In this document: one piece after another, positions 212 through 2,130 of the stretch
Position numbering within the stretch: the first letter of the stretch is position 1
Layout: every line of letters begins with the position of its first letter
Source: a virus
Lineage: Duplodnaviria > Heunggongvirae > Uroviricota > Caudoviricetes
Length of the DNA stretch: 5,432 nt
IMG/VR virus record: IMGVR_UViG_2698536392_000013
Direction: 5' to 3' (one strand)
Made by a program: the position numbers and the translations under genes
Notes under the pieces: generated by a model
The model's input: only the letters and a program-made list of their open reading frames with translations
Told to the model about the DNA's origin: nothing
The model's database searches: none

Positions 212-1614
212 GCCATTACTTTTGCAACGCGATCGGCCTCTCCCCTTGCCCCCTGCAATTCTCTGGTCAGTTTTTGCAGTTCTCCTGAACCAGCCGCCGC
301 AACAAGCGTCTGCAAACCAACGAACGCCTCTTCTCCGGCGATGTCCTTGAAGAAGGAGACCTGGTCCACCTGTCCGTATTTTTGTGTCGCCTTATAGAGA
401 TCAAGCAGCACATCCTCCATCGGGCGCATTTTGCCTCTGGCGTCAGCAACTGACACCCCCAGCTCTTTCAGTGCATCAGCCGCAGCTTTTGGCGGTGATG
501 CAAGGCGGGACAGACTTGCGCGCATGGCCGTACCAGCATCGCTTCCGCGAAGACCATTATTGGCAAGCATCCCGGCCATGGCCGCCGCTTCTTCAAGACT
601 GATACCAAGTTTTGCGGCAACCGGACAGGTATACTTCATGGTTTCGCCCAGCGCGCGTAAATCAGTATTGGTCCGGGTGAATGCTGCTGTCAGCGTATCG
701 CCAACCCGGTCCATTTGATCGGCTGTCAGGTTGAACTGTGTGAGGATATTGGAGCCTATATCAGCCGTCTCGCCGAGTTCGACGCCACCTGCCAGCGCCA
801 TATTAAGAACACCGGGCAATGCGGCCTGAATGGCCTGCGGAGTAAAACCAGCCATTGCCAGAAAGCTCTGCCCACTGGCGGCATCACTCGCAGTAAACTG
901 TGTTTCAGAACCAAGTTTTAACGCCTGCTCACGCAGCGCCTTAAACTGCGGGCTGTTTTTGTCGATTCGCGTCAGTGCCTGAACGCGGGACATCTCTTTG
1001 CCGAACCCGATCGCAGGCTGCAAAAAACGCCCGGCAGCATAGCCGCCAGCCGCTGCAGCACCAATTGCCAGCGCACCACCTGTTTTCAGTTTTCCCGCGG
1101 TTTCCTGCGCGCGCGAATACCGCTCACGCGCCCGCGTTACACGCGCAAGCGCCTGCCGTTCGCGTTCAAGCTGGTTGTTGTACTGTTCGGTGCGTCTGAT
1201 GGCCTGCTGGATGGTGTTATCGCTGCCTGTCAGGGAAATGCCGTGGCGTTTCAGCTCTCCGCCAAGTTCCCGCATTTTCTGAATTTCCCGTGTGCGCGAT
1301 TCATTCAGGCGTTCAAGCCGGGTGCTTAACTGCTGCATCAGCTTTTGTTGTTTTTCGCTGAGCACTGTACCCGTGCGTTGTAACTGATTAAGGGCGTTAA
1401 GCTGGCGTCGTGCTTTCACGATACCCGCATCCGCTTTACTGACAGCGTCGCGGGCGCGCTCAAATGAACGCGCCTGACGCTCGAGATTTTTGATCGCCCC
1501 CTGCGTTCGCTGGATGGAGTCACCAAACTGCCCCATCAGGCGGCGGGCGTTTTCGGCAGGCCGGGTCAGCCTGTCAACGGCGCTGAAAGCGACCCGGATA
1601 TCAAGAGTCTTCAT
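172..1614 (-). pseudogene. T: Phage tail tape-measure protein (P2 gpT-like), truncated and fused to IS sequence; native T-derived sequence is about 212-1614
   Basis: Translation has a coiled-coil-rich N-terminus (many R/E/Q/L heptads), a Gly/Ala-rich hydrophobic segment (GGALAIGAAAAGGYAAG), then a tape-measure core-like region (LPGVLNMALAGG...DRVGDTLTAAF...AKLGISLEEAAAMAGML...FFKDIAGEEAF). Start is probably ATG 1614-1612 (GGGAG 8 nt upstream, overlapping the E' stop) rather than the GTG at 1650 used by the ORF track. About 468 native codons against roughly 800 expected for a P2-type T; the last ~13 codons (EPPRVSWSVFYL) are read from inside the IS end. Confidence 0.75.
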
Positions 1615-2130
1615 TGTCTGCACTCCCGCTGCGAAGTGCCGCCCGCTCACGCCAGCTAACCACTTCGCCGGGCGTCATCATGAAGATTTCGGCGGGCGAC
1701 CAGTTAAAAATAACGGCAATATCTGCCACAAAGTCTTCTATGTGCTCAAAGCACACAACCGTGATCAGGCTTCCGTCGCCTGTTCGTTCTTCCCGCCAGA
1801 GTCCGCACCGCTCAAAAAATTTACGGCAACCGCACATAACTGAATAAAGTCACGGGATGCCATTTTTTTGATCGTCACTTCATCCAGTCGCGGTGATGTC
1901 ACGCGTGACAGCAGCGTAAACATGGATTCCGCTTTCAGATTCAGCACATCAGACAGCGACAAATCTCGCAGAGATCCAGCCTGCTCAATAGCTCCGGTGA
2001 TCTCCACATACGTGATTTTTTCGCCGCCTCGCTCAATTGGTTGGGTAAGTTTTACGCCACGCTCACTGGTTTCTTTCACAGTGTCAGCAACGACCGTGTT
2101 TTCGGTATCGATGTTTTTCGTCTCTTTCAT
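1601..2130 (-). CDS. E+E': E+E' fusion chaperone produced by programmed -1 ribosomal frameshift (predicted about 176 aa: 106 codons of E, then 70 codons in the -1 frame)
   Basis: The -1 frame relative to E is open from 1849 down to stop TGA 1603-1601. The in-frame heptamer T TTT TTG (minus strand, 1819-1813) sits inside this overlap, and the E' stop overlaps the T start by 14 nt. Confidence 0.6.
1765..2130 (-). CDS. E: Tail assembly chaperone E (P2 gpE-like), 121 aa zero-frame product
   Basis: Position between the tube gene and the tape-measure gene; strong RBS (AAGGAG 7 nt upstream of ATG 2130-2128); contains the slippery heptamer and an overlapping -1 frame ORF, as in P2 E/E' and lambda G/GT. 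Confidence 0.7.
   Translation of the reverse strand: MKETKNIDTENTVVADTVKETSERGVKLTQPIERGGEKITYVEITGAIEQAGSLRDLSLSDVLNLKAESMFTLLSRVTSPRLDEVTIKKMASRDFIQLCAVAVNFLSGADSGGKNEQATEA
1813..1819 (-). promoter_or_regulatory. Programmed -1 frameshift slippery heptamer T TTT TTG (X XXY YYZ in the E frame)
   Basis: Minus-strand codons GTA AAT TTT TTG AGC in the E frame; after a -1 slip the next codon is GAG (1813-1811), continuing into the E' frame (ERCGLWREE...). Confidence 0.6.

What the first reader, a model, noticed from the sequence alone, without database searches (positions are those of the whole stretch)
1601..2130. Programmed -1 frameshift E to E+E' on T TTT TTG, with unusually long E and E+E' products
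The heptamer T TTT TTG sits in the E zero frame at 1819-1813, inside the only stretch where the -1 frame is open (1849 to 1601), and the -1 frame ends 14 nt into T. This is the conserved chaperone frameshift of long-tailed phages. Predicted products are about 121 aa (E) and about 176 aa (E+E'), against 91 and 142 aa recalled for P2, so the chaperone is N-terminally or internally extended here. No obvious downstream stimulatory pseudoknot or hairpin was identified by eye.
Basis: partly seen in the sequence, partly recalled or inferred. Interest (0 to 1): 0.4.

Follow-up and report, generated by a model that had tools for sequence, protein, structure and literature searches.

The report
P2-type tail chaperone frameshift site
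This is the well-known programmed -1 ribosomal frameshift that lets P2-like phages make two tail-assembly chaperones (E and E+E') from one start codon, here in a P88-like E. coli prophage; it is ordinary, apart from carrying two overlapping slippery sites instead of one.

Summary
On the minus strand, gene E (2130-1765, 121 aa) contains T TTT TTG at 1819-1813 in the zero frame. That lies inside the only open stretch of the -1 frame (1849-1601), which ends 14 nt into the tape-measure gene T. The predicted fusion is 176 aa, and its -1-frame part matches Pfam Phage_P2_GpE (E=6.5e-12).

The window is 100% identical to an E. coli chromosome and about 99% identical to inducible phage P88 (Xuanwuvirus, Peduoviridae). 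In 149 distinct intact E/E' loci, every one has an in-phase X XXY YYZ heptamer at the homologous position.

- **Length.** E is not unusually long. Family E lengths run 91-138 aa (median 105), and 24% are 121 aa or longer. The extra residues relative to P2 are a roughly 19-aa poorly conserved N-terminal leader, 2 internal residues, and a longer linker after the shift site.
- **Shift site.** The site is really a decamer, A AAT TTT TTG, with a second in-phase heptamer, A AAT TTT (1822-1816). Viable sister phages (phiSM, P884B11) keep only that one (TTTTATG).

No downstream structure or upstream Shine-Dalgarno (SD) stimulator was found. The prophage here is defective, because T is split by an IS3-family element. 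This is a known mechanism and of low interest.

The parts
1765..2130 (-). Gene E (tail assembly chaperone, zero-frame product, 121 aa), from ATG 2130 to TGA 1767-1765
   Evidence: ORF listing and translation. PHROG 103 E=3.4e-35 over residues 6-120. Pfam PF10109 Phage_TAC_7 is weak (17.1 bits, below the 25-bit cut-off) over residues 26-106. PGAP annotates it as 'tail protein' WP_000665305.1.
2138..2143 (-). Shine-Dalgarno AAGGAG, 7 nt upstream of the E start codon
   Evidence: Anti-SD duplex is -8.2 kcal/mol for ATG 2130, against -2.5 for the only alternative in-frame start, GTG 2079. The SD and the MK(E/D) start are conserved in sister lineages.
1813..1822 (-). Slippery decamer A AAT TTT TTG, made of two overlapping in-phase heptamers: A_AAT_TTT (1822-1816) and T_TTT_TTG (1819-1813)
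   Evidence: These are the only two in-phase X XXY YYZ heptamers in the whole of E. T_TTT_TTG is the P2 site (PMC3091744). A_AAT_TTT alone remains in P884B11, phiSM, 503458 and L110.
1765..1849 (-). E/E' overlap: the only part of E where the -1 frame is open
   Evidence: Three-frame translation.
1601..1813 (-). E' extension read in the -1 frame after the slip (70 codons plus TGA 1603-1601), completing the 176-aa E+E'
   Evidence: Pfam PF06528 Phage_P2_GpE, E=6.5e-12, 45.2 bits (cut-off 23), on fusion residues 135-170. PHROG 1756 E=2.3e-38. PGAP annotates only 1601-1756 as a separate 51-aa 'GpE family phage tail protein' starting at GTG 1756.
209..1614 (-). 5' part of tape-measure gene T (ATG 1614), overlapping the end of E' by 14 nt; interrupted by an IS element near 209-237
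   Evidence: Pfam PF10145 PhageMin_Tail E=1.2e-56. SD -6.9 kcal/mol. Homology to P88 T breaks near residue 459. PGAP marks it as a pseudogene.
2185..2697 (-). Tail tube gene FII, directly upstream of E (context)
   Evidence: Pfam PF04985 Phage_tube E=2.1e-46.
2697..3881 (-). Tail sheath gene FI (context)
   Evidence: Pfam PF04984, PF22671 and PF17482.

Best explanation
Ribosomes start at ATG 2130 and mostly terminate at TGA 1767-1765, giving the 121-aa chaperone E. A small fraction slips back one nucleotide on the U-rich decamer A AAU UUU UUG (1822-1813). Those ribosomes continue in the -1 frame to UGA 1603-1601 and make a 176-aa fusion, E+E'.

The slip can happen at either of two phases. With tRNA-Asn and tRNA-Phe on A_AAU_UUU the junction reads ..VNF-FERCG... 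With tRNA-Phe and tRNA-Leu on U_UUU_UUG it reads ..VNF-LERCG... Both give the same length.

By homology with P2 E/E+E' and analogy with lambda G/GT, the shared E part binds the tape-measure protein T, and the rarer E' domain recruits the tube protein so that the tail polymerises to the right length. Neither protein ends up in the virion.

Shown here: the sequence anatomy, the homology, the family-wide conservation of an in-phase heptamer, the absence of an independent E' start signal, and the absence of an RNA stimulator. Inferred: that the fusion is actually made, its ratio to E, which heptamer is used, and the chaperone function.

In this particular strain the signal is probably idle, because T is split by an IS3-family insertion.
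For: **Anatomy.** The in-phase heptamers lie inside the only open -1 stretch, and the -1 ORF ends 14 nt into T. Gene order is FI-FII-E-E'-T.

**Homology.** PF06528 GpE hits the -1-frame part at E=6.5e-12. PHROG 103 and PHROG 1756 also hit. The fusion aligns end to end with P2 E+E' and eight other Peduoviridae fusions, with 14 invariant columns.

**Conservation.** In 149 of 149 distinct intact loci, E' is in the -1 frame of E with an in-phase X XXY YYZ at the homologous site.

**No independent E' start.** ATG 1837 has no SD (+0.6 kcal/mol) and GTG 1756 is weak (-3.5), against -8.2 for the E start. ATG 1837 is GTG in the sister clade. In L130 a TAA closes the -1 frame immediately before the heptamer.

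**Natural fusions at the site.** A T7 variant (L105) fuses E and E' in frame exactly at the run.

**Viability of relatives.** P88 (98.8% identical here, same decamer) and phiSM (A_AAT_TTT only) are plaque-forming phages (PMC5285337, PMC6456863).

**Literature.** The P2 -1 shift at T6G gives 91-aa and 142-aa products. E' lacks an RBS, and no downstream structure is present (PMC3091744 and PMC3931495, both citing Christie 2002 and Xu 2004).
Against: - There is no direct evidence of the fusion protein for this lineage. The P88 paper never mentions a frameshift, and RefSeq annotates two separate CDSs.
- Both heptamers are weak shifters in E. coli reporters without a stimulator: UUUUUUG 0.118% and AAAUUUU 0.070% (Sharma 2014, Table S3).
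- No stimulator was found. The 60 nt downstream fold with z = +1.19. The family-wide mean z is -0.07 over 107 sequences. The consensus fold is -0.96 kcal/mol. The upstream anti-SD duplex is -2.4 kcal/mol.
- In a single sequence the heptamer alone has about a 10% chance expectation.
- T is disrupted here, so the function cannot be selected in this strain.
Confidence: 0.9

Rival explanations
1. E' is a separate gene translated from its own start codon (GTG 1756 as annotated by PGAP, or ATG 1837), and no frameshift occurs.
For: RefSeq/PGAP and the P88, P884B11 and 503458 records annotate a stand-alone 51-aa 'GpE family phage tail protein'. In-frame start codons exist at 1837, 1756 and 1729.
Against: - These starts have no usable SD (+0.6, -3.5 and -1.9 kcal/mol, against -8.2 for E).
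- ATG 1837 is not conserved.
- In P2 the -1 frame is open only 15 nt upstream of the heptamer, and E' is reported to lack an RBS (PMC3931495).
- The universal -1 phasing plus the in-phase heptamer in 149 of 149 loci has no reason to exist under independent initiation.
Confidence: 0.03
2. The fusion arises by transcriptional slippage: RNA polymerase adds one extra U on the T6 run, and the edited mRNA is then read normally.
For: The site contains a homopolymer (T6). A genomic T7 variant gives an in-frame E-E' fusion (L105). UUUUUUG is a poor ribosomal shifter in E. coli reporters (0.118-0.765%).
Against: - Sister phages with only a T4 run (AAATTTTATG), and Klebsiella relatives with CCCTTTC, keep the same gene arrangement and are viable. 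A homopolymer is therefore not required.
- What is always kept is the codon-phased X XXY YYZ pattern, which matters to ribosomes and not to RNA polymerase.
- From general knowledge, efficient slippage by E. coli RNA polymerase needs runs of about 8-9 or more.
Confidence: 0.04
3. Sub-rival about the site: in this lineage the working shift site is the upstream heptamer A_AAU_UUU (1822-1816), and the P2-like U_UUU_UUG is redundant or secondary.
For: - Eighteen distinct loci, including viable phiSM and P884B11 and a P88-like contig (L110), have lost TTTTTTG (now TTTTATG) but keep A_AAT_TTT.
- A parallel case exists: C_CCT_TTT_TTG 'dual' loci and C_CCT_TTC-only Klebsiella loci.
- In E. coli reporters AAAUUUU responds far better to stimulators than UUUUUUG (11.4% against 0.77% with the IS3 pseudoknot). 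The A-site tRNA-Phe re-pairs perfectly after the slip (PMC4066793).
Against: - Without a stimulator AAAUUUU (0.070%) is no better than UUUUUUG (0.118%), and no stimulator was found here.
- The related lineage L130 has GTT AAT TTT TTG, with only T_TTT_TTG in phase.
- T_TTT_TTG is the experimentally established P2 site.
Confidence: 0.35

Closest known systems
Bacteriophage P2 E / E+E' programmed -1 frameshift in the FETUD tail operon (Christie et al. 2002; NC_001895, CDS join annotated)
   Same: - Same position between tube gene FII and tape-measure gene T.
- Same T_TTT_TTG heptamer near the 3' end of E.
- E' is in the -1 frame, lacks its own RBS and overlaps the start of T.
- The E' domain is homologous (PF06528), and the E core aligns (32% identity over the fusion).
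- No downstream structure (PMC3091744).
   Different: - E is 121 aa against 91, and the fusion is 176 aa against 142. The extra residues are about 19 in the N-terminal leader, 2 internal, a 15-aa rather than 6-aa E tail, and 13 more E' residues (70 against 57), about 10 of them in the linker before the conserved DDLxADIAxIF motif.
- The E/E' overlap is 85 nt against 37 nt.
- There is an additional overlapping heptamer, A_AAT_TTT.
- There is no SD-like AAGGTGG upstream of the site.
- D and ogr are on the opposite strand rather than colinear.
Phage P88 and other Xuanwuvirus members (P884B11, 503458, 520873, Citrobacter phiSM)
   Same: P88 is 98.8% identical over 1550-2200, with the identical decamer, the same SD and the same 121/176-aa products. 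Gene order and orientation are the same.
   Different: The P884B11/phiSM/503458 branch (about 85% nt identity) has TTTTATG, so only A_AAT_TTT is in phase; its E is 124 aa and its fusion 179 aa. None of these records annotates the frameshift. The window copy sits in a defective prophage.
Lambda G / G-T tail assembly chaperone frameshift (Levin 1993; Xu, Hendrix & Duda 2004, 2013, 2014)
   Same: The logic is the same: two overlapping ORFs between the major tail gene and the tape-measure gene, a -1 slip on a heptamer near the end of the first ORF, low efficiency, a fixed ratio, and products absent from the virion (PMC5009743).
   Different: There is no sequence similarity. Lambda uses G_GGA_AAG. 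Among the homologues surveyed here only Mannheimia PHL101 uses that heptamer.

Membership tests
P2-type E/E+E' tail assembly chaperone frameshift | Two overlapping ORFs located between the tail tube gene and the tape-measure gene | tested here: met
   FII 2697-2185, E 2130-1765, E' to 1601, T from 1614.
P2-type E/E+E' tail assembly chaperone frameshift | The second ORF is in the -1 frame of the first, and an in-phase X XXY YYZ heptamer lies inside the overlap | tested here: met
   T_TTT_TTG at 1819-1813 and A_AAT_TTT at 1822-1816 are the only in-phase heptamers in E. The same holds in 149 of 149 intact homologous loci.
P2-type E/E+E' tail assembly chaperone frameshift | E' carries the GpE domain (Pfam PF06528) | tested here: met
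   E=6.5e-12, 45.2 bits against a cut-off of 23, on fusion residues 135-170. PHROG 1756 E=2.3e-38.
P2-type E/E+E' tail assembly chaperone frameshift | E belongs to the P2 gpE chaperone family (Pfam PF10109 Phage_TAC_7) | tested here: inconclusive
   PF10109 scores 17.1 bits, below the 25-bit gathering cut-off. However, PHROG 103 gives E=3.4e-35, and the E core aligns with P2 E with invariant L28, L54, R55, L59, L74, R76 and L82.
P2-type E/E+E' tail assembly chaperone frameshift | E' has no ribosome-binding site or start of its own | tested here: met
   Anti-SD duplexes are +0.6 (ATG 1837), -3.5 (GTG 1756) and -1.9 (GTG 1729), against -8.2 for the E start.
P2-type E/E+E' tail assembly chaperone frameshift | A fusion protein is actually produced at a low fixed ratio, and both products are essential for tail assembly | not testable with these tools
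   Needs protein analysis or genetics in a P88 lysogen. It is known only for P2 and lambda, from the literature.
Stimulated -1 PRF signals (dnaX / IS3-type: heptamer plus downstream hairpin or pseudoknot, or upstream SD) | A stable, conserved RNA structure 5-9 nt downstream of the heptamer, or an SD-like element 10-14 nt upstream | tested here: not met
   z = +1.19 for 60 nt downstream. Mean z is -0.07 across 107 homologous sequences. The RNAalifold consensus is -0.96 kcal/mol. The upstream anti-SD duplex is -2.4 kcal/mol. There is no Rfam hit at E<=1. Pseudoknots were not searched explicitly.

The most novel reading that the evidence does not exclude
The decamer A_AAT_TTT_TTG is a two-site intermediate in an evolutionary 'hand-off' of a programmed frameshift site by one codon. 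Close relatives show all three states:
- GTT AAT TTT TTG: downstream site only.
- GTA AAT TTT TTG: both sites (this window and P88).
- GTA AAT TTT ATG: upstream site only (phiSM, P884B11).

The same series occurs independently with C_CCT_TTT_TTG and C_CCT_TTC. On this reading, in the window both phases are used and two E+E' isoforms (Phe or Leu at residue 106) are made. It would also mean that the P2 paradigm 'T6G is the conserved site' does not hold across Peduoviridae.
Probability: 0.35. Interest if true: 0.3.

Novelty: new member of a known kind. Interest (0 to 1): 0.15.

Why it matters
The practical value is for annotation. In RefSeq, P88-like phages and more than a thousand E. coli prophage copies carry E' as a free-standing 51-aa 'GpE family' gene, where a joined E+E' CDS as in P2 would be correct. 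The family survey also shows that the slippery heptamer in P2-like phages is not fixed as T6G. It moves by one codon between lineages through dual-site intermediates. That is a small, testable point about how frameshift signals evolve under dual-coding constraint. Nothing here changes the understanding of tail assembly.

Tried and rejected
- **Downstream stimulator.** I folded 55-120 nt after the heptamer in the window and five relatives, computed z-scores for 107 distinct family sequences, and ran RNAalifold on 8 lineages. Nothing exceeded shuffles. A 9-bp hairpin at about 1759-1741 lies 54 nt downstream, too far away, and is explained by the conserved VCFEH peptide.
- **Upstream SD stimulator.** Absent here.
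- **Rfam.** No match at E<=1.
- **NCBIfam.** No model hit for E or the fusion.
- **PDB sequence search with the family profile.** No hit at E<=1.
- **AlphaFold2.** I modelled a naturally fused homologue (P0026, 98% identical) with a 15-sequence alignment. Mean pLDDT was 52.8, too low for a fold search. It only hints that residues 1-22 and the linker 104-130 are unstructured.
- **Shorter E from an internal start.** Rejected. The only in-frame alternative, GTG 2079, has no SD. The FII-E gap (54 nt) matches P2 (56 nt). The ATG plus SD is conserved while the leader sequence varies by in-frame indels.
- **Christie et al. 2002 (PMC135442).** Not held, so P2 experimental details are cited second-hand.
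Full report
**Where the window comes from.** The 5432-nt window is 100% identical to the E. coli 2013C-4830 chromosome (NZ_CP027325, 4161432-4166863), and more than 1100 complete E. coli genomes hold at least 80% of it. Region 1550-2200 is 98.8-99.2% identical to the inducible, plaque-forming P2-like phages P88 and 500465-2. It is about 85% identical to other Xuanwuvirus members: P884B11, 503458, 520873 and Citrobacter phiSM (PMC5285337; PMC6456863).

On the minus strand the genes are:
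- sheath FI (3881-2697);
- tube FII (2697-2185);
- E (2130-1765);
- the -1 ORF E' (to 1601);
- tape measure T (from ATG 1614).

D and ogr lie on the plus strand. T is split by an IS3-family element; window 1 to about 208 is IS sequence. An IS600 follows ogr. This copy of the prophage is therefore almost certainly defective.

**Check of the observation.**
- E runs from ATG 2130 to TGA 1767-1765 and encodes 121 aa.
- TTTTTTG occupies 1819-1813, phased AAT|TTT|TTG.
- The -1 frame carries stops throughout E except from 1849 on, and stays open to TGA 1603-1601, which is 14 nt into T.
- The fusion is 106 + 70 = 176 aa.
- P2 gives 91 and 142 aa (PMC3091744).

In this single sequence an in-phase heptamer in the last 29 codons arises in 10.5% of codon shuffles. 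The statistical weight therefore has to come from comparison with relatives.

**What it is.** The -1-frame part of the fusion matches Pfam PF06528 (Phage_P2_GpE) at E=6.5e-12, above the curated cut-off. E matches PHROG 103 (E=3.4e-35), and the extension matches PHROG 1756 (E=2.3e-38). The Pfam match of E to Phage_TAC_7 is sub-threshold, at 17.1 against 25 bits. An alignment of ten conceptual fusions from different Peduoviridae genera, P2 included, is colinear over the whole length and has 14 invariant columns.

I collected homologous loci from three sources: GTDB species genomes, IMG/VR and GenBank phages. With HMMs for the E core and the E' domain I scored frame relationships and heptamers. 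Of 176 E' hits, 168 have the E core in the expected frame. The other 8 are indel-bearing or decayed copies. After removing duplicates and broken copies, 149 distinct intact loci remain, and all 149 carry an in-phase X XXY YYZ heptamer at the homologous position inside the E/E' overlap.

**Start codons and the rival of independent initiation.** The E start at 2130 has a strong SD (AAGGAG, -8.2 kcal/mol). The only alternative in-frame start, GTG 2079, has none (-2.5). In the E' frame, ATG 1837 (+0.6), GTG 1756 (-3.5; the start PGAP chose) and GTG 1729 (-1.9) all lack an SD. ATG 1837 is GTG in the sister clade. In lineage L130 a TAA closes the -1 frame immediately upstream of the heptamer. For P2, E' is reported to lack an RBS (PMC3931495). 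The stand-alone 'GpE family phage tail protein' CDS in RefSeq is therefore best read as an annotation artefact.

**Length.** Compared with P2, the extra residues are:
- about 19 aa of acidic, Thr-rich N-terminal leader before the conserved core (V26 here aligns with I7 of P2);
- 2 aa in an internal loop;
- a 15-aa rather than 6-aa zero-frame tail;
- 13 more E' residues (70 against 57), about 10 of them in the linker between the shift site and the conserved DDLxADIAxIF motif.

The leader is translated. The SD and the MK(E/D) start are conserved, while the leader itself varies by in-frame indels (22-28 codons in neighbouring lineages). It is probably disordered, although that rests on a low-confidence AF2 model in which residues 1-22 have pLDDT below 50.

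Across the 149 loci, E is 91-138 aa (median 105; 24% are 121 aa or longer). The fusion is 129-193 aa (median 158). The leader before the core is 2-41 aa. The PHROG 103 profile is 119 positions long. So 121/176 aa is long relative to P2 but ordinary for the family.

**The shift site is a decamer.** E contains exactly two in-phase heptamers, and they overlap: A_AAT_TTT (1822-1816) and T_TTT_TTG (1819-1813).

Among the 149 loci the site classes are as follows.

| Site class | Heptamer(s) | Loci |
|---|---|---|
| T-run only | T_TTT_TTG | 59 |
| T-run only | T_TTT_TTA | 12 (13 with L040, listed below) |
| T-run only | T_TTT_TTC | 2 |
| T-run only | T_TTT_TTT | 2 |
| Dual | C_CCT_TTT + T_TTT_TTG | 16 |
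| Dual | A_AAT_TTT + T_TTT_TTG (window, P88) | 13 |
| Dual | G_GGT_TTT + T_TTT_TTN | 4 |
| Dual | C_CCT_TTT + T_TTT_TTA | 1 |
| Upstream only | C_CCT_TTC | 20 |
| Upstream only | A_AAT_TTT | 18 |
| Other | L040: script reported G_GGG_GGT; a T_TTT_TTA also lies in its overlap | 1 |
| Other | PHL101: G_GGA_AAG (+ A_AAG_GGC) | 1 |

These counts are not phylogenetically independent.

Close relatives of the window show a three-state series:
- GTT AAT TTT TTG in L130;
- GTA AAT TTT TTG in the window and P88;
- GTA AAT TTT ATG in P884B11, phiSM and 503458, and also in L110, which is otherwise P88-like.

Because phiSM forms plaques, A_AAT_TTT alone appears sufficient, assuming E+E' is essential as it is in P2.

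E. coli reporter data (Sharma et al. 2014, Table S3) give these -1 frameshift rates.

| Heptamer | No stimulator | IS911 stimulator | IS3 pseudoknot |
|---|---|---|---|
| UUUUUUG | 0.118% | 0.247% | 0.765% |
| AAAUUUU | 0.070% | 0.355% | 11.4% |
| CCCUUUC | 0.193% | 1.39% | 23.2% |

Which of the two phases is used in the window cannot be decided from sequence. The products differ only at residue 106 (Phe or Leu).

**Stimulators.** None was found.
- The 60 nt after the heptamer fold no better than shuffles (z = +1.19). Relatives give z between -0.28 and +1.01.
- Over 107 distinct family sequences the mean z is -0.07, and 4.7% fall below -2.
- RNAalifold on eight lineages gives -0.96 kcal/mol.
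- Rfam has no match.
- There is no SD-like element upstream (-2.4 kcal/mol).

This agrees with published statements for P2 and Burkholderia P2-like phages (PMC3091744). Pseudoknots were not searched explicitly.

**Transcriptional slippage.** This is unlikely to be the general mechanism. The T-run is only T4 in the sister clade and is broken in the CCCTTTC group, whereas codon phasing is always kept. It cannot be formally excluded for the T6 run here.

**Verdict.** This is the known P2-type tail-chaperone -1 frameshift in a P88-like (Xuanwuvirus) prophage. It is unannotated as such in RefSeq, it has a family-typical rather than unusual length, and its slippery site carries two overlapping heptamers. 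Confidence in the mechanism class is about 0.9. Interest is low (0.15). The only mildly novel aspect is the apparent one-codon migration of the slip site between lineages.

Noticed in passing
window 1-~237 (and L001 4956-6169): An IS3-family element is inserted in tape-measure gene T. Window 1 to about 208 is the IS end, including the C-terminal 44 aa of its transposase on the plus strand. Homology of T to P88 T breaks near residue 459, and T reads through into the IS as ..EPPRVSWSVFYL*. Together with an IS600 just past ogr, this makes the prophage defective in this strain.
   Followed up: partly
window 3907-5148 (+): The gpD (baseplate hub, PF05954) ORF has a good SD and an ATG at 4039, matching the start of P88 gp51 (MTDTTMQLL..). 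PGAP annotates only 4348-5148, as a 'VgrG/Pvc8 family' protein. D and ogr are divergent from FI here and in P88, unlike the colinear FETUD-ogr order of P2.
   Followed up: partly
L004 (P2) 2664-2692 and 63 T-run-only loci: P2-type loci carry an SD-like AAGGTGG about 4 nt upstream of T6G. Their mean anti-SD duplex is -5.6 kcal/mol, against -2.3 for control positions. Loci with dual or upstream-only heptamers, the window included (-2.4), do not carry it. It may be a by-product of Gly-Lys-Val codons, and it is too close for a classical -1 stimulator. The comparison is not corrected for phylogeny.
   Followed up: partly
window 1863-1869 (-), A7 run in ATC AAA AAA ATG: Several database proteins (P0050, P0057, P0058; 176-179 aa) are E-E' fusions that change frame at this A7 run rather than at the slippery site. 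This presumably reflects homopolymer indels or assembly errors in relatives whose -1 frame is open that far upstream. In the window, a -1 stop at 1852-1850 would truncate such a product.
   Followed up: no
L105 ~1740-1752 and L134 ~1740-1753 (IMG/VR contigs): Homopolymer length variants lie exactly at the slip site: CCCTTTTTTTG (T7), which fuses E and E' in frame, and T8. They are either sequencing errors or natural mutations that hard-wire or break the frameshift.
   Followed up: no
window 1741-1759 (-): A 9-bp hairpin, UGUGUGCUUUGAGCACAUA, sits just after the E stop codon and inside the E' coding region, 54 nt downstream of the heptamer. It is not significant against shuffles (z = -0.94 for the 90-nt context), and its sequence is fixed by the conserved VCFEHIE peptide.
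   Followed up: partly
window 1601-1756 (-); L002, L005, L007: RefSeq/PGAP and the phage records annotate E' as a separate 51-aa CDS starting at GTG. They give no programmed-frameshift join, unlike the P2 reference record.
   Followed up: yes
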